From Eledone cirrhosa (Eukaryota): a stretch of 64,000 nt of DNA. The stretch spans positions 29,140,001-29,204,000 of the forward strand of contig OZ024758.1 in assembly GCA_964016885.1 (NCBI GenBank). Direction: 5' to 3'. The position numbers were made by a program, and so were the translations under genes. Under the pieces are notes generated by a model. That model was given only the letters and a program-made list of their open reading frames with translations, made no database searches and was not told the DNA's origin. Shown here piece by piece: positions 94 to 64,000 of the stretch; position 1 is the stretch's first letter; the number at the start of each line of letters is the position of its first letter.

Positions 94-229
94 GGACCCA
101 CTTACACAAATGCAAGAGGAAAAACATGAACATGATGCTAAAATGAAAAAGATGGAAGCTGAAATGGAACAAGTTTTCGAAATGAAGGTTAAAGAAAAGA
201 AGACCAAATTAAAGGACTCTGAAGCCGAT
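94..229 (+). CDS. SEPT7: Septin-7-like internal coding exon (start of C-terminal coiled coil); upstream exons lie outside the window
   Basis: Acceptor ttttttg tag at 91-93 and donor GAT|GTGAGT at 230. Translation [45 protein letters not shown] matches the recalled SEPT7 motif [44 protein letters not shown]. Ends in phase 0. Confidence 0.93.
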
Positions 230-1290
230 GTGAGTTAAATTAAGTTTCTCTATACACGTCTACAGTATATAGTTATAAAGGACTCTGAAGCCGATGTGAG
301 TTAAATTAAGTTTCTCTATACACATGTCTACAGTATATAGTTATAAAGGACTCTGAAGCCGATGTGAGTTAAATTAAGTTTCTCTATACACATGTCTACA
401 GTATATAGTTATAAAGGACTCTGAAGCCGATGTGAGTTAAATTAAGTTTCTCTATACACATGTCTACAGTATATAGTTATAAAGGACTCTGAAGCCGATG
501 TGAGTTAAATTAAGTTTCTCTATACACATGTCTACAGTATATAGTTATAAAGGACTCTGAAGCCGATGTGAGTTAAATTAAGTTTCTCTGTACACACGTC
601 TACAGTATATAGTTATAAAGGACTCTGAAGCCGATGTGAGTTAAATTAAGTTTCTCTATACACACGTCTACAGTATATAGTTATAAAGGACTCTGAAGCC
701 GATGTGAGTTAAATTAAGTTTCTCTATACACATGTCTACAGTATATAGTTATAAAGGACTCTGAAGCCGATGTGAGTTAAATTAAGTTTCTCTGTACACA
801 CGTCTACAGTATATAGTTATAAAGGACTCTGAAGCCGATGTGAGTTAAATTAAGTTTCTCTATACACATGTCTACAGTATATAGTTATAAAGGACTCTGA
901 AGCCGATGTGAGTTAAATTAAGTTTCTCTATACACATGTCTACAGTATATAGTTATAAAGGACTCTGAAGCCGATGTGAGTTAAATTAAGTTTCTCTGTA
1001 CACACGTCTACAGTATATAGTTATAAAGGACTCTGAAGCCGATGTGAGTTAAATTAAGTTTCTCTATACACATGTCTACAGTATATAGTTATAAAGGACT
1101 CTGAAGCCGATGTGAGTTAAATTAAGTTTCTCTATACACATGTCTACAGTATATAGTTATAAAGGACTCTGAAGCCGATGTGAGTTAAATTAAGTTTCTC
1201 TGTACACACGTCTACAGTATATAGTTATAAAGGACTCTGAAGCCGATGTGACTTAACTTTCTATACACATGACTACAATATATAGTTGTT
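211..1290 (+). repeat. 68-bp tandem repeat (16 units, last one degenerate) that starts inside the septin exon and spans its 5' splice site
   Basis: Unit aaaggactctgaagccgatgtgagttaaattaagtttctctatacacatgtctacagtatatagttat starts at 211, 277, 345 ... 1229. The first unit is 66 bp. The variant ctgtacacacg recurs every third unit (549, 753, 957, 1161). Confidence 0.97.
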
Positions 1291-1863
1291 TAAAAATATA
1301 CTATTTTACTTGTTTCAATCATTAGACTATGGCCATGTTGCAGCACTGCTTTAAAGGACTTTAGTCAATCATATCAACCCTAGTACTTTTTTTTTTCAAG
1401 TCTATTTATTTCATCAATCTCTTTTTGTTGAACTGTTAAGTTATGGGATATAAACACAGGTACACTCACATACATATATACAATAGGCTTTTGCACAGTT
1501 TCTGTCTTCCAAATTTCATTCACAAACATTGGTCAACTCAAGGTTATAGTAGAAGACCCTTGCTCATGGTGCACACAATAGGACTGAATCCCAAACCATT
1601 GATTGTGAAGTAAACTCTTTAACCTCTCAACTATGTGTGTGCCAATATTATATATTTTTATTTCATTCTGTTCTGAGCTGAGTGACTAATGAAACAATTT
1701 ATATAAAAGAATAGAAAGCGGCGAGCAGAGTTTGAAAATTGAAATAGAGGGCTTCGGCATATCTTTTGACTAAATAGAATAGTAAAATAATGGGGCATAT
1801 AAACCCACTCAATGGAAAAAGATAGCCACTTTTTCCATTGAGGAAAAAATAGCGCCTCAATAG

Positions 1864-2503: not shown

Positions 2504-2649
2504 TTGCAACGAAGAGCTGAACAAATGAAGAAGAGCTTAGATCAACAACAGAAAGATCTTGACGAAAAATGGCTTGCCCTTGAAAAAGAGAAATCCACTT
2601 GGGAAGAGCAGATGGGAGAAAGAAGACGCTCACTAGAGAATACGAAAGA
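2504..2649 (+). CDS. SEPT7: Septin-7-like coding exon (coiled coil), 146 nt, phase 0 to 2
   Basis: Acceptor ttttag at 2501-2503 and donor GA|GTAAGT at 2650. Translates LQRRAEQMKKSLDQQQKDLDEKWLALEKEKSTWEEQMGERRRSLENTK, continuing the previous exon in frame and matching SEPT7 LQRRHEQMKKNLE...W. Absent from the ORF track. Confidence 0.93.
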
Positions 2650-9623: not shown

Positions 9624-9688
9624 CGTGGCCTGGTCTACTTTTTTTCGGTTGAAACGCTAAATCGATCAAAATATCACAAGGAGAGCAG
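9624..9688 (+). CDS. Candidate 65-nt cassette exon of the septin
   Basis: Strong acceptor tttctttcgctttcag and donor CAG|GTATGT. Phase 2 reads (D)VAWSTFFRLKR*; phase 0 reads open throughout. TGCATG at 9786 and ACTAAC at 9928 lie downstream. Prediction only. Confidence 0.5.
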
Positions 9689-15088: not shown

Positions 15089-15314
15089 TGAATATTTGTC
15101 TCAAATATTTTCAGTGGCTTTCGCAACTTGTGTGTCTTACCCTGCTAAGTGGAAACCAATGTGGTTTGTATTGTGTCCTTTGTACGTCTGTGTCATCCTG
15201 CTTAGCAGCTGCTATTCAGCTTCTTGTGTTGTCCTTATTGTGGCTAAGACTGTCAATATCCTTAAACAGTTTTATAATATTTACAAATTAGTTTATATTT
15301 GTATGTATCATTAG
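15089..15314 (+). CDS. Candidate alternative terminal exon encoding a hydrophobic, Cys-rich tail
   Basis: Acceptor ctcacctattcctgtcatacag (AG 15087-15088). Phase 2 enters ORF 15096..15314 exactly in frame: (D)EYLSQIFSVAFATCVSYPAKWKPMWFVLCPLYVCVILLSSCYSASCVVLIVAKTVNILKQ... Prediction only. Confidence 0.35.
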
Positions 15315-45712: not shown

Positions 45713-45746
45713 TTCAAAGAAAGATAAGAAGAAGTCTATATTTTGA
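45713..45746 (+). CDS. SEPT7: Septin-7-like terminal coding exon (polybasic tail and stop)
   Basis: Long pyrimidine tract ...ttttccacag (AG 45711-45712). Phase 2 gives (D)SKKDKKKSIF*, matching the SEPT7 ending KKKGKIF*. TGA at 45744-45746. Confidence 0.88.
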
Positions 45747-46767
45747 AAAGGAAGTGAAGTTGCCAAAAGGAGGTTTATGGGTCCACAATTTTATTGGGAG
45801 GACTGCAACAGTAATAACTTTCTGACTAAACTGGGTCTGTCAGCAATGTGCAACAAACTGCAATCACTCACTGTCCAGTATTTTTCAACATGACTTCTCT
45901 TTTCAGTTATCATTTCAATTCTTTAGGGTGTCATCTTTTTTAGAATGTAATATTCTTTATCCAATCTACCACAATTTTTCATTGTCATCTTCCCAACTGG
46001 ATCCTAGTGCAAGACATTTGCCAAATAAGCACTACTTCTAATGTGAACATTGGAATCATTTTTGCTAATTACATATAACTTTCACCAACATAAAACAAGA
46101 TCATGTATTTCTATATTTACTGACTCTATCATATGCTTCATCTTCCCAATGTATTATTCATGTTTGACAGATTAAATTTTTGAACATGTTCAATTTAAAA
46201 GGTTTTGTATTTAAAGATTTTATGTGGTTTAGTTTAGATATTAACCATTTCTTGATAATGGACAAAGTACATGTTCTCTGATACCCAAAGAGAGGAGTGA
46301 TGTGGTTTACATTCAAATTATTTGTTTTAATGATTTTGAGAACTCAAAAAAATGTGCTATCTACACAGTTTCTGAATGCAGAATTGCATCTACTTTTTAG
46401 TCACTTGACATAATTCAATGGACAAATATTGAAAGTGACTTAGTAAATCAGAACTGTTGTTAGGAGCTCTTAGCCATTTTATTTTTATTCTTAATCTTTG
46501 TAAATATTTTTGATAGTAAAATGAATTCTATCAATAGAATGGTTTCTTCTTGATGAAGAGAGCTATACCAATAGATAGAAAATCTAAAACCTTCTATAAT
46601 TATGACTAATTACACTTAATATTCTATCCAATGATTATCCTTTATTATTTAAAATAATAAAACAAACAAAAAAACATGTTCACTCTGCAAATAGAAAGAT
46701 AAAGCACTGGTTGAATTACTTGGATATGTTTTCTCCTTACCATTATAAAGTATTTTAATTTCATAAG

Positions 46768-48084: not shown

Positions 48085-48352
48085 AGAATAATGTACATAA
48101 TAATGTATATAATAAACACTGTGCCACTTTACTACTACTATAGTATATATGGTATATAATACAATAAACACTGTGTCACTTATCTACTACTACAGTAAAT
48201 ATACTAGTATATATGGTATATAATACAATAAACACTGTGACTTATCTATTACTACAGTATATATACTAGTATATATGGTATATAATACAATAAACACTGT
48301 GTGACTTATCTATTACTACTACAGTATATATACTAGTATATATGGTATATAA
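48085..48352. repeat. Degenerate ~60-bp minisatellite (about 4-5 copies)
   Basis: Recurring aataaacactgtg...acttatctactactacagtatatatactagtatatatggtatataat. Confidence 0.8.
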
Positions 48353-49121
48353 TCTCCTCAAATCAACACAAAGAAATATTAAAAGTAAAATTAAGTTAAT
48401 TTTATTATTAATTCAACTAGAGTGCCATCTTGCTCCCCATAATCATGCCACATATCACTATAATTAATATGAAGCCTGTGCCCCATAACATTTAATTTTA
48501 CCAAATGTACAACACTTTTTTTTTTTTTTTCACTTTTTTTTTTTCCTTTTTTTTTTTTTTTTTTTTTTTTTTTCCCTGAGACATTTTTCACCATACTTTG
48601 TCAAATTTTGCATGCAATTATTTTATATCTTAAATCTGTATAGAAGATTTCTTTTCAAATAACCAAATCAGTTATACACACATACCTTCTCATCATGTCT
48701 TGTCGTATGTGTTTATATAAATTCACCTTTTGGACTTTTGTAAATGATTGCTGTACCTGGGATCCAATGTGCAATTTTTTTTACTAAATAGTTAATGACA
48801 TGTGATATATGTTAAAAGGTACCTGTATATTTGCATGAATGAATGAAAGACTGTTCATTCACTAATGTATTCAATGAATTCATATTGCTTGTGTCTAAGT
48901 AAAAGAATCTGCTCTCAAAATTGAAATCAAAATGTTAATCTTTATATGCTTCCACAACTGCAAACCTTCACTGACAATTCTGATTATCTGCCAAAGGGGC
49001 AACAAACCACTGAATAACAACTCCAGTTCTATCAATAAGAAGAATTATCAACTATCAACTATCTTACTCTCTTTAAAGTTTAGTTTAGAAAAGGTAGCCA
49101 TTGTTTTATGTCTTTTAGGAG

Positions 49122-55061: not shown

Positions 55062-55120
55062 CCCTATCCCTAACCCTAACCCTAACCCTAACCCTAACCC
55101 TATCCCTAACCCTATCCCTA
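55062..55120. repeat. Short interstitial telomere-like repeat (CCCTAA/CCCTAT)10
   Basis: ccctatccctaaccctaaccctaaccctaaccctaaccctatccctaaccctatcccta. Confidence 0.85.
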
Positions 55121-57110: not shown

Positions 57111-57778
57111 CTGTACTATACTATAGCTCACTACACTATACTATACTATACTATAGCTCACTATACTATACTATAGCTCACTACACTATACTATACTATA
57201 GCTCACTATACTATACTATACTATACTATAGCTCACTATACTATACTATACTATACCATACTATAGCTCACTATACTATACTATACTATAGCTCACTACA
57301 CTACGCTATACTATACTAGAGCTCACTACACTATACTATACTATAGCTCACTACACTATACTATAGCTCACTATACTATAGCTCACTACACTATACTATA
57401 GCTCACTATACTATACTATACTACACTACACTACACTACAGTAGACTATACTATACTACACTGTACTATACTATGCTATGCTATACTATACTGCAATGTA
57501 CTATACTATACTATACTATACTATACTATACTATACTATACTATACTACACTACACTACACTACACTACACTACACTACACTACACTACACTACACTATA
57601 CTATACTATACTATACTACACTATACTATACTACACTATACCATACCATACTATACTATACTATACTATACTATACTATACTACACTACACTACACTACA
57701 CTACACTACACTATACTATACTACACTATACCATACCATACCATACTATACTATACTATACTATACTATACTATACTA
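57111..57778. repeat. Pentanucleotide microsatellite (CTATA/CTACA/CCATA)n with GCTCA interruptions
   Basis: Seen directly; source of the YYTIL ORFs. Confidence 0.95.
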
Positions 57779-58892: not shown

Positions 58893-60122
58893 CAGGGTGT
58901 AACAGGTAAATTGGGACAAGTTACAAATGGATATATTTCTAATTGTATAGATTTTGTTGGAGTCTAAATATTACCACCTTAAGTAATCACTTATTCATAA
59001 TTTGTTCAATCTGAAATACAAAATATGTTAATAAAGAAGTAAACCGTAGAAGTGTAATTGCTGAATTATTCCACACCAGCAAAAGTGCTGGGGAGATTGT
59101 TAGAGCCACAAAGTATGTTAAATCTACTGTTTTTTAGAGTTGTAACTAATTTGAAGAACAGTCAGGATGTTCATAGAAAGTCTCACAGTCCTCGCAGTGA
59201 CTGAAACTGCACACACCACTTCTTAGCAGGATTTACAAGATCAATTGAGTCAAACCCATCAAAATCGATGGCAAAGTTGGCTCAATATCAAAGAATCAGT
59301 AAAATGGCCATTTCTAGTACTGTGAGACAAGACTTCCATATGAAATCATAAGTGAGGGGACACCGTAACATCCTAACTACCCACTCCAAAGTCATTCAAA
59401 CTGAAAGAAGTCTCAAACTTCTTAGCCATCTGAAACATTGTGGCAGAGAGATCCGTATCTTTGTGAATGAAAAGGAAGTTTGTAGTAGACGAAGTTGCAA
59501 ACCATCAAAACTCACGACTAATAGCATATGACCCTTACCAAGTTCCTTCAGCTATGGATAGCAAGAATCCAGCTTCTGTTATGGTCTTTGGAGCTGTTGC
59601 AAGTGATGGGAAATTGATGTCTCCTCATATTATTGAAGCAGGTCTTAAAATCAACACAGCAGAATATCTCAAAATCTTAGAAGAAATTTTGTTGCCTTGG
59701 ATTAAGAAGCATTATGATGCAAGTCGAGTGATGTTTGTACAGGATTCCACATCCACCCATTCTTTGAAAAGAGTGCAAGAATTTTTTTGAAGAAGGAATT
59801 GCCCATGTTGGTCCCTAAAGATATCTGGCCCTCTAGTTCACCAGATTTGAATCTGTGATTTTCAGCTATGGGGCCCAGTTGAAGCAATATCCAACACAAC
59901 TTCTCACAACTTTGTGTCTTCACTGAAGGCTTCTATCAAGCGAGCATTCGGCAAAATGAAAAAGGAAGAAATAGTTAAGGCATGCTCATCATTTCGTAAA
60001 TGGATTGAACTGGTAAAGAAAGCAAATGGTGGTCACATAAAATTTGCAGTGTTTGATTTTTCTGAGTTATACCAATTATAATAAAGATATTTAAATGGTC
60101 CTACTTTTCCTGTTACACCCTG
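58893..60122 (+). mobile_element. Tc1/mariner DNA transposon, maT (DD37D)-like, full length but pseudogenised
   Basis: TIRs CAGGGTGTAACAGGtAAAtTgGGAC and GTCCtActTTTcCTGTTACACCCTG, with TA on the left. Transposase motifs N.QN.R, VMVFGAVASDGK, FVQDS..H and WPSSSPDLN; stops and frameshifts present. Repairing the frame gives 37 residues between the second and third D. Confidence 0.88.
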
Positions 60123-61634: not shown

Positions 61635-64000
61635 TCTACTGTACTGTACAAGCTCCCTATTTCCTCATTCTGTCTACTGTACTGTACATGCTCCCTATTT
61701 CCTCATTCTGTCTACTGTACTGTACAAGCTCCCTATTTCCTCATTCTGTCTACTGTACTGTACAAGCTCCCTATTTCCTCATTCTGTCTACTGTACTGTA
61801 CAAGCTCCCTATTTCCCCATTCTGTCTACTGTACTGTACAAGCTCCCTATTTCCTCATTCTGTTTACTGTACTGTACAAGCTCCCTATTTCCTCATTCTG
61901 TCTACTGTACTGTACAAGCTCCCTATTTCCTCATTCTGTCTACTGTACTGTACAAGCTCCCTATTTCCTCATTCTGTCTACTGTACTGTACAAGCTCCCT
62001 ATTTCCTCATTCTGTCTACTGTACTGTACATGCTCCCTATTTCCTCATTGTCTACTGTACTGTACAAGCTCCCTATTTCCTCATTCTGTCTACTGTACTG
62101 TACAAGCTCCCTATTTCCTCATTCTGTCTACTGTACTGTACAAGCTCCCTATTTCCCCATTCTGTCTACTGTACTGTACAAGCTCCCTATTTCCTCATTC
62201 TGTCTACTGTACTGTACAAGCTCCCTATTTCCTCATTCTGTCTACTGTACTGTACAAGCTCCCTATTTCCCCATTCTGTCTACTGTACTGTACAAGCTCC
62301 CTATTTCCTCATTCTGTCTACTGTACTGTACAAGCTCCCTATTTCCTCATTCTGTCTACTGTACTGTACAAGCTCCCTATTTCCTCATTCTGTCTACTGT
62401 ACTGTACAAGCTCCCTATTTCCCCATTCTGTCTACTGTACTGTACAAGCTCCCTATTTCCTCATTCTGTCTACTGTACTGTACAAGCTCCCTATTTCCTC
62501 ATTCTGTCTACTGTACTGTACAAGCTCCCTATTTCCCCATTCTGTCTACTGTACTGTACAAGCTCCCTATTTCCTCATTCTGTCTACTGTACTGTACAAG
62601 CTCCCTATTTCCTCATTCTGTCTACTGTACTGTACAAGCTCCCTATTTCCTCATTCTGTCTACTGTACTGTACAAGCTCCCTATTTCCTCATTCTGTCTA
62701 CTGTACTGTACAAGCTCCCTATTTCCCCATTCTGTCTACTGTACTGTACAAGCTCCCTATTTCCTCATTCTGTCTACTGTACTGTACAAGCTCCCTATTT
62801 CCTCATTCTGTCTACTGTACTGTACAAGCTCCCTATTTCCTCATTCTGTCTACTGTACTGTACATGCTCCCTATTTCCTCATTCTGTCTACTGTACTGTA
62901 CAAGCTCCCTATTTCCTCATTCTGTCTACTGTACTGTACAAGCTCCCTATTTCCTCATTCTGTCTACTGTACTGTACAAGCTCCCTATTTCCCCATTCTG
63001 TCTACTGTACTGTACAAGCTCCCTATTTCCTCATTCTGTTTACTGTACTGTACAAGCTCCCTATTTCCTCATTCTGTCTACTGTACTGTACAAGCTCCCT
63101 ATTTCCTCATTCTGTCTACTGTACTGTACAAGCTCCCTATTTCCTCATTCTGTCTACTGTACTGTACAAGCTCCCTATTTCCTCATTCTGTCTACTGTAC
63201 TGTACAAGCTCCCTATTTCCTCATTCTGTCTACTGTACTGTACAAGCTCCCTATTTCCCCATTCTGTCTACTGTACTGTACAAGCTCCCTATTTCCTCAT
63301 TCTGTCTACTGTACTGTACAAGCTCCCTATTTCCTCATTCTGTCTACTGTACTGTACAAGCTCCCTATTTCCCCATTCTGTCTACTGTACTGTACAAGCT
63401 CCCTATTTCCTCATTCTGTCTACTGTACTGTACAAGCTCCCTATTTCCTCATTCTGTCTACTGTACTGTACAAGCTCCCTATTTCCCCATTCTGTCTACT
63501 GTACTGTACAAGCTCCCTATTTCCTCATTCTGTCTACTGTACTGTACAAGCTCCCTATTTCCCCATTCTGTCTACTGTACTGTACAAGCTCCCTATTTCC
63601 TCATTCTGTCTACTGTACTGTACAAGCTCCCTATTTCCTCATTCTGTCTACTGTACTGTACAAGCTCCCTATTTCCTCATTCTGTCTACTGTACTGTACA
63701 AGCTCCCTATTTCCCCATTCTGTCTACTGTACTGTACAAGCTCCCTATTTCCTCATTCTGTCTACTGTACTGTACAAGCTCCCTATTTCCCCATTCTGTC
63801 TACTGTACTGTACAAGCTCCCTATTTCCTCATTCTGTCTACTGTACTGTACAAGCTCCCTATTTCCTCATTCTGTCTACTGTACTGTACAAGCTCCCTAT
63901 TTCCCCATTCTGTCTACTGTACTGTACAAGCTCCCTATTTCCTCATTCTGTCTACTGTACTGTACAAGCTCCCTATTTCCTCATTCTGTCTACTGTACTG
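61635..64000. repeat. 38-bp satellite/minisatellite, at least 62 copies, runs off the window end
   Basis: Unit TCTACTGTACTGTACAAGCTCCCTATTTCCTCATTCTG; main variant CCCCATT. Confidence 0.99.

What the first reader, a model, noticed from the sequence alone, without database searches (positions are those of the whole stretch)
211..1290. Tandem array amplifying a splice junction creates 15 identical in-frame 30-nt pseudo-microexons in a septin intron
Seen: the 68-bp unit contains the last 19 nt of the septin exon, its donor GTGAGT, a short pyrimidine stretch and ...tctaCAG. Between that CAG and the next GT lie exactly 30 nt (tatatagttataaaggactctgaagccgat; 266-295, 334-363 ... 1218-1247). They are phase 0-0, stop-free and encode YIVIKDSEAD. 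The few unit variants I saw fall in the 38-nt 'intron' part. Established: 36-38 nt is below the usual minimum spliceosomal intron size in most animals, so neighbouring units should exclude each other, while skipping one gives a 106-nt intron. Inference: splicing could insert a variable number of 10-aa blocks into the SEPT7 coiled coil, or the copies could act as decoy donors. Simple extension of the exon to a downstream donor hits GTG AGT TAA and truncates the protein. It may equally be a neutral VNTR that is always spliced out.
Basis: partly seen in the sequence, partly recalled or inferred. Interest (0 to 1): 0.75.

Follow-up and report, generated by a model that had tools for sequence, protein, structure and literature searches.

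The report
Splice-donor minisatellite in octopus septin-7
The end of one exon of an octopus septin gene, with its splice signal, is copied 15 more times into the next intron, but the one assembled transcript found runs from the first signal straight to the next exon, so the tiny exon-like copies are most likely inert, as in similar repeats known from human, lancelet and chicken genes.

Summary
Observation confirmed: a 68-bp minisatellite (210-1256) in an octopod SEPT7 gene repeats the last 20 exon bases, the donor and 48 intron bases, giving 15 identical in-frame 30-nt AG...GT segments. Short-read contigs carry the head-to-tail junction, so it is not an assembly error. The only spliced contig found (run X1, 2,822 nt) joins 229 directly to 2504; contigs can hide rare forms. 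No insertion occurs at this site in 39 of 39 mollusc SEPT7 sequences. An in-frame, stop-free segment arises in 9-18% of simulated donor duplications; the acceptor is weak (2.0-4.6 bits against 10.5 for the gene's real 30-nt microexon); variants lying in the 'intron' part is chance-level (p 0.17). Minisatellites fill 24% of the region, and 3 of 188 other exon hits carry exon-end copies. This is a known kind: human F7/CBS/LMNB2 junction-spanning VNTRs, lancelet 'mirages', chicken 'exon stuttering', where the first donor usually wins. This scan noted the same kind before on other DNA (ECM29 and WDR19 in this genome; abalone; a worm). Verdict: real, most likely neutral; a microexon ladder is unsupported but not excluded.

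The parts
94..229 (+). SEPT7 coding exon (136 nt, coiled-coil region); its last 20 nt (210-229) are the exon part of the repeat unit
   Evidence: tblastn with Octopus septin-7; covered by spliced contig in run X1
210..1256 (+). 68-bp minisatellite, 15.4 copies, 98% matches; unit = 20 nt exon end + donor + 48 nt intron
   Evidence: 98-nt (68+30) collapsed contig in runs X2-X4
230..235 (+). authentic 5' splice donor (GTGAGT), the one used in the assembled transcript
   Evidence: X1 contig leaves the genome sequence after 229 and continues with 2504-2533
266..295 (+). first of 15 identical 30-nt AG...GT pseudo-exons (then every 68 nt from 334-363 to 1218-1247)
   Evidence: inclusion in RNA not seen
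296..1185 (+). 14 pseudo-donors identical to the authentic donor over 20 exon bases and the intron start (296, 364 ... 1180)
1248..1295 (+). diverged terminal part-unit: donor +5 changed, 7-nt gap, no CAG; likely an old boundary copy left out of homogenisation
   Evidence: pairwise alignment to the major unit
2504..2649 (+). next SEPT7 exon (146 nt)
   Evidence: loose end of the X1 contig matches its first 30 nt
9624..9660 (+). alternative last exon 1 of SEPT7 (coding part)
   Evidence: matches C-terminus of Octopus isoforms
15115..15148 (+). alternative last exon 2 of SEPT7 (coding part)
   Evidence: matches O. sinensis isoform X3 C-terminus
45713..45746 (+). alternative last exon 3 of SEPT7 (coding part, followed by 3' UTR)
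   Evidence: X1 holds all sampled words of 45714-46700

Best explanation
A 68-bp tandem repeat copies the end of a septin-7 exon and its splice donor 15 more times into the intron; the assembled transcript uses the first donor and skips the whole array, so the copies are likely a neutral by-product of this genome's heavy minisatellite formation. Inferred origin: a local duplication of the exon end plus intron start, with a short TAAA match at the breakpoints, followed by amplification and homogenisation of the inner units while the last part-unit decayed. Inferred splicing: the 136-nt exon is defined with its nearest donor, as shown for human F7; downstream donors are passed over; any leak to them meets a stop after two codons and would likely be degraded. 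The 30-nt 'microexons' are a chance result of a CAG lying 30 nt before the next copied donor.
For: Shown: the X1 contig (2,822 nt, depth 48.5) covers 94-229 with no mismatch and continues into 2504-2533; the joint table is empty. 39 of 39 mollusc SEPT7 sequences that hold the region have no insertion there (25 Octopus, 14 other; 2 of 41 were fragments without it). Null models: an in-frame stop-free YAG...GT segment appears in 8.8% of 8,316 simulated duplications of 11 other SEPT7 donors and in 17.5% of 20,000 with random intron sequence. Pseudo-acceptor scores 2.0-4.6 bits; the 15 real acceptors of the gene score 3.2-14.8, its real 30-nt microexon 10.5; 7.9% of 2,443 intronic YAGs score as high as the major variant. 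No yTnAy branch-point match in the 38 nt. 29 minisatellites cover 63.6 of 264 kb around the locus; about 0.13 exon-edge captures are expected in this gene by chance. 3 of 188 myosin, kinase and septin exon hits carry a local copy of their exon end against 3 of 1,867 cross-locus pairs. The CAG sits in ACAGT, a word enriched in this genome's minisatellite units on either strand (13 of 43 arrays outside the window, shuffle mean 3.5). Literature: in F7, LMNB2 and PDGF only the first donor is used (PMC1557585); lancelet mirages do not disturb splicing (PMC3087553).
Against: The RNA evidence is one run, not on record as RNA (inferred from its spliced contig), and contigs drop rare variants. Only the first unit (to 297) was laid, not the whole array. 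The true downstream acceptor at 2504 scores 4.1 bits, no better than the pseudo-acceptor, so weakness alone does not exclude use. In 2 of the 5 human cases named in PMC1557585 (CBS, interferon-inducible 6-16) the nearest pseudo-donors are also used. All 15 copies keep the 20 exon bases exactly. The acceptor model rests on only 15 sites. The orthologue sequences come from other species, which may lack the array.
Confidence: 0.8

Rival explanations
1. Leaky decoy donors: a measurable share of transcripts is cut at one of the next donors, carries the stop two codons into the intron and is degraded, so repeat number would tune SEPT7 level.
For: 14 downstream donors are identical to the real one over 20 exon bases; every extension reads V-S-stop; the nearest pseudo-donors are used in human CBS and 6-16 (PMC1557585). 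Degraded products would be under-represented in contigs.
Against: No such form among X1 contigs laid on 94-297 (weak because contigs drop rare forms); in F7 minigenes pseudo-donors with consensus value up to 91 did not compete; no copy-number or expression data.
Confidence: 0.12
2. Microexon ladder: one or more 30-nt units are spliced in (across 104-106-nt or longer skips, or directly across the 36-38-nt gaps), adding 10-residue blocks to the SEPT7 coiled coil in some tissues.
For: 15 of 15 segments are phase 0-0, stop-free and identical; the same gene has a real alternatively spliced 30-nt microexon (in 19, absent in 6 of 25 Octopus sequences); the pseudo-acceptor scores like the real 2504 acceptor; 104-106 nt is above the 50-90 nt quoted as typical shortest animal introns (PMC13644364).
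Against: Direct 229-2504 join in the only spliced contig; 0 of 39 orthologues with an insertion; pattern expected in 9-18% of random donor duplications and variant placement at p 0.17; no yTnAy match and a second, out-of-frame TAG 7 nt downstream; 36-38 nt is below typical animal minimum and the 11 mapped introns of this gene are 1,962 nt or longer; a 10-residue insert would break the heptad register (my inference).
Confidence: 0.06
3. The array is an assembly artefact.
For: Copies are 98% alike; runs X2-X4 may be the sample the assembly came from.
Against: Four unit variants in a non-random order; runs X2-X4 each hold a 98-nt (68+30) contig that crosses the head-to-tail junction, at 9.1, 9.6 and 10.4 times the depth of the flanking contig, near the 11.75 expected from the assembly (contig depth is only a rough hint of copy number).
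Confidence: 0.02

Closest known systems
Human junction-spanning minisatellites: F7 IVS7 (37 bp x 5-9), LMNB2 (100 bp x 10-15), PDGF intron 4 (81 bp x 16-18), CBS IVS13 (15-20 units), interferon-inducible 6-16 (Borensztajn et al. 2006, PMC1557585; abstract and passages of introduction, results and discussion read)
   Same: First unit spans the exon-intron boundary; a row of donors identical to the real one follows; the most upstream donor is used in F7, LMNB2 and PDGF. Unit size and copy number are in the same range.
   Different: Here the unit holds 20 exon bases (F7: 4) and an internal CAG that frames an in-frame 30-nt segment; length polymorphism and minigene tests are lacking here; CBS and 6-16 also use the nearest pseudo-donors, which was not seen here.
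Lancelet 'mirages' in Adh3 and globins BflGb6/BflGb9 (PMC3087553, passages read; PMC3902484, one passage read)
   Same: Minisatellite-like duplications of intron-exon boundaries in an invertebrate, units 10-160 bp, many with AG/GT signals, normal splicing by RT-PCR, inner units homogenised and boundary units excluded.
   Different: Different phylum and gene; instability between haplotypes was shown there and is untested here.
'Exon stuttering' on chicken dot chromosomes (PMC12954441, passages read)
   Same: Local repeat expansion that copies the edge of a coding exon with its splice site through the intron, in chromosomes full of locally born repeats; 190 of 5,572 dot-chromosome introns (3.4%). 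Here 3 of 188 exon hits (1.6%) carry an exon-end copy.
   Different: Bird dot chromosomes; repeats there are often more degenerate; my screen used exact 16-mers in 0.8-1.5 kb flanks and is not the same test.
Real 30-nt SEPT7 microexon of the same gene (G000:C19:29121445-29121474)
   Same: 30 nt, phase 0-0, same transcript.
   Different: Single copy, conserved and alternatively included in Octopus species (19 with, 6 without), acceptor 10.5 bits with a yTnAy match, flanked by 4-kb and 11-kb introns.

Membership tests
Junction-spanning minisatellite (F7 IVS7 type / mirage / exon stuttering) | Head-to-tail array whose first unit spans an exon-intron boundary | tested here: met
   68 bp x 15.4 from 210, 20 nt inside the exon
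Junction-spanning minisatellite (F7 IVS7 type / mirage / exon stuttering) | Reiterated splice sites identical to the authentic one | tested here: met
   14 identical downstream donors plus one diverged
Junction-spanning minisatellite (F7 IVS7 type / mirage / exon stuttering) | Main mRNA uses the authentic, most upstream donor | tested here: met
   X1 contig joins 229 to 2504; one run, minor forms not excluded
Junction-spanning minisatellite (F7 IVS7 type / mirage / exon stuttering) | Inner units homogenised, boundary unit diverged | tested here: met
   four near-identical inner variants; last part-unit with substitutions and a 7-nt gap
Junction-spanning minisatellite (F7 IVS7 type / mirage / exon stuttering) | Copy number varies between individuals or haplotypes | not testable with these tools
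   the three DNA-type runs are one sample, held as contigs
Genuine microexon | Length up to about 30 nt and frame-preserving | tested here: met
   30 nt, phase 0-0, no stop
Genuine microexon | Inclusion seen in RNA | tested here: inconclusive
   not in contigs of the one spliced run; contigs drop rare forms
Genuine microexon | Conserved in orthologues | tested here: not met
   0 of 39 mollusc SEPT7 sequences have an insertion at this site
Genuine microexon | Strong acceptor with branch point and spliceable flanking introns | tested here: not met
   2.0-4.6 bits against 10.5 for the gene's real microexon; no yTnAy match; 36-38 nt between neighbours; model built on only 15 sites

The most novel reading that the evidence does not exclude
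In some tissue (nervous tissue first) the spliceosome includes one or several of the 15 identical 30-nt units, so that a minisatellite born from a splice junction acts as a copy-number-dependent microexon cassette that lengthens the SEPT7 coiled coil in 10-residue steps: a repeat array caught in the act of becoming new exons.
Probability: 0.06. Interest if true: 0.65.

Novelty: new member of a known kind. Interest (0 to 1): 0.17.

Why it matters
As it stands it is one more example that a spliceosome can pick the first of 15 identical donors, now in a mollusc, and a sign that exon-edge repeat capture is a recurring background process in this octopod genome (about 1-2% of sampled exons), which gene annotators should expect. 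It would matter more if reads showed inclusion: that would be a direct case of repeat-driven exon birth with copy-number control of a cytoskeletal protein.

Tried and rejected
No RNA holder was listed as such by the run search (4 runs, 1 study, kind unknown); X1 is taken as RNA only because its contig is spliced. X1 has no cover over 234-297; a hole in contigs proves nothing and is not used as evidence. 'Variants avoid the microexon' as a sign of selection: rejected (p 0.17 for three events). A genome search with two units found only this locus (7 of 7 matches), so the unit is not a dispersed repeat at that sensitivity. TRF screen of 188 exon hits: 42 had a minisatellite in their flanks, 3 within 60 nt of the hit, and none of these copied an exon end; the three exon-end copies came from the 16-mer screen, in which a fourth hit, a simple CA/TA run, was dropped. 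The 188 hits include 33 longer than 400 nt, some probably intronless kinase domains; 28 of the listed myosin and kinase hits were not fetched. Folding of two units gave no structure that I could interpret and no shuffle control was run. Intron gain by tandem duplication of an AGGT-containing segment (search listing only): does not fit, since the unit has no AGGT site and no new intron is formed. PMC10078293 (passages) gave no junction-spanning case. PMC9438311 (passages) covers vertebrates only. Searches for octopus or cephalopod minisatellites in introns and for repeat-derived microexons listed no paper on this locus or on junction-spanning arrays in cephalopods; these three searches of an open-access library are the only basis for 'not described in octopods'. 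No supplements were opened; the gene list in the supplement of PMC12954441 does not bear on the claims made.

Full report
Locus. The window is G000:C19:29140001-29204000 in a 3.0-Gb genome. Exon 2504-2647 is 90% identical to Octopus sinensis septin-7, and tblastn with Octopus isoforms maps the whole SEPT7 gene over about 148 kb, with 94-229 and 2504-2649 as the last two shared coding exons and three alternative last exons at 9624, 15115 and 45713. The animal is therefore an octopod.

Observation. Confirmed in detail. The unit is the last 20 exon bases, the donor GTGAGT and 48 intron bases. There are 16 donor positions, 15 CAG acceptors and 15 identical 30-nt phase 0-0 segments. The first gap is 36 nt, the rest 38. 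The last part-unit (from 1248) is diverged: donor +5 changed, a 7-nt gap, CAA in place of CAG. Inner units fall into four variants (9, 4, 1, 1 copies). A TAAA match sits at the unit's left edge in the exon and near the right edge in the tail, which fits a microhomology-aided duplication (inference).

Is it real? Runs X2-X4 (one sample) each hold a 98-nt contig, the length expected for a collapsed 68-bp cycle at word size 31, that crosses the head-to-tail junction and carries the major variant; its depth is 9.1-10.4 times that of the flanking contig, against 11.75 expected from the assembly. Contig depth is only a rough guide and the sample may be the assembled one, but an assembly error is unlikely.

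What the RNA shows. Run X1 holds one 2,822-nt contig (depth 48.5) that matches 94-229 without a difference and then continues with the first 30 nt of the exon at 2504; no joint to 266 is listed. X1 is not on record as RNA; I infer it from the splicing. So the main transcript uses the first donor and removes the whole array. Contigs drop rare variants, and only the first unit was laid, so low-level use of other sites remains open. Of 41 SEPT7 sequences fetched, 39 hold the region and none has an insertion at this junction; these are other species, so this shows constraint on the protein, not the behaviour of the array.

Is the microexon pattern more than chance? Simulated duplications across the 11 other mapped SEPT7 donors give an in-frame stop-free YAG...GT segment in 8.8% of 8,316 cases (0-29% by donor); with the same 20+48 geometry and random intron sequence, 17.5% of 20,000. 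Three variant events all in the 38-nt part: p 0.17. With a rough acceptor model built on the gene's 15 real acceptors, the pseudo-acceptor scores 2.0-4.6 bits; real sites score 3.2-14.8 and 7.9% of 2,443 intronic YAGs match the major variant. Against my reading, the real acceptor at 2504 scores only 4.1. The gene supplies its own positive control: a real 30-nt phase 0-0 microexon 18.6 kb upstream of the window, present in 19 and absent in 6 of 25 Octopus sequences, with a 10.5-bit acceptor, a yTnAy match and kilobase introns on both sides. The repeat unit has no yTnAy match and a second, out-of-frame TAG 7 nt after the CAG. Typical shortest animal introns are about 50-90 nt (PMC13644364, passages), so 36-38 nt is unlikely to be spliced, while 104-106 nt could be.

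Background rate. 29 minisatellites (period 20-150) cover 63.6 of the 264 kb around the locus. Ten lie in SEPT7; chance alone gives about 0.13 captures of one of its roughly 28 splice sites. Among 188 exon hits of myosin, kinase and septin families, 3 carry a local copy of their exon end: several degenerate copies with the donor in a kinase intron (L111), one 120-nt copy with the donor (L159), and one diverged 95-nt copy (L139); cross-locus control 3 of 1,867. The CAG lies in ACAGT, found on either strand in 13 of 43 distinct arrays outside the window against a shuffle mean of 3.5 (0 of 5,000 shuffles reached 13). The word was first noticed in the window's arrays, which were left out of that count; other alternating purine-pyrimidine words are enriched as well. 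This suggests the 'acceptor' comes with the sequence type that seeds these repeats, not from splicing.

Mechanism. Shown: the array, its anatomy, the direct 229-2504 join in the main contig, the stop after two codons on any extension. Inferred: origin by local duplication and unit turnover; choice of the first donor by exon definition or 5'-to-3' scanning as shown for F7; decay of any leaked product (the decay rule is recalled knowledge). Odds: neutral 0.80, leaky decoys 0.12, real microexon use 0.06, artefact 0.02.

Comparison. Borensztajn et al. 2006 (PMC1557585; abstract and passages) describe this very arrangement in F7 and list LMNB2 and PDGF (first donor only) and CBS and 6-16 (nearest pseudo-donors also used). 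Lancelet 'mirages' (PMC3087553, PMC3902484; passages) often carry AG/GT signals, do not disturb splicing and show the same inner homogenisation with diverged boundaries. Chicken 'exon stuttering' affects 3.4% of dot-chromosome introns (PMC12954441; passages). Four of five defining features were met here; length polymorphism could not be tested. As a microexon it fails on conservation and acceptor quality and is inconclusive on inclusion. Three searches listed no paper on such arrays in cephalopods. Earlier notes of this scan report the same kind in ECM29 and WDR19 of this genome and in an abalone and a worm; I checked the papers they named, not those loci.

Verdict. A real, young junction-spanning minisatellite; a new member of a known kind; most likely neutral. 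Interest 0.17.

Noticed in passing
window 17276-42839: A 25.5-kb satellite (48 bp x 545) lies in the last SEPT7 intron and begins 37 nt after a TAG acceptor scoring 8.3 bits; spliced to exon 2504-2649 the frame would stay open for 37 codons into the satellite. Possible fourth last exon, not among known Octopus isoforms; no RNA test.
   Followed up: partly
window 9624-9660, 15115-15148, 45713-45746: Three alternative last exons of SEPT7, all matching annotated Octopus isoform ends; gastropod sequences also show several C-termini.
   Followed up: partly
L009:1445-1474 (G000:C19:29121445-29121474): A real, lysine-rich 30-nt SEPT7 microexon in the GTPase domain, included in 19 and skipped in 6 of 25 Octopus sequences and absent from the gastropod sequence P0003.
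   Followed up: partly
46 distinct arrays in 732 kb of G000 (window, L008-L027 and other loci): Minisatellite units of this genome are enriched for ACAGT, TACAC, ACATG and ACGTC (either strand): 13, 13, 13 and 7 of 43 arrays outside the window against shuffle means of 3.5, 4.2, 3.0 and 2.3. The septin array's units carry all four. May point to a sequence preference of whatever seeds the repeats.
   Followed up: partly
L111 (G000:C1:322458184-322459990), L159 (C22:283916-286994), L139 (C18:36957015-36966568): Further exon-end copies in introns: several degenerate copies of a kinase exon end with donor (L111), a 120-nt copy starting just before a donor (L159), a diverged 95-nt copy of a myosin exon end (L139).
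   Followed up: partly
L116:83-796 (G000:C10:38598014-38599925): A 41-bp array ends a few bases before a kinase exon's acceptor and supplies its pyrimidine stretch.
   Followed up: no
window 55062-55120, 57114-57778, 48141-48353, 61635-64000: Other tandem arrays: telomere-like (CCCTAA)n, (TACTA)n, a 62-bp array in or near the SEPT7 3' end, and a 38-bp array of 70 copies that runs 291 nt past the window end.
   Followed up: no
window about 58900-60120: By eye a decayed Tc1/mariner-like transposase with similar inverted ends; label recalled, no call made to test it.
   Followed up: no
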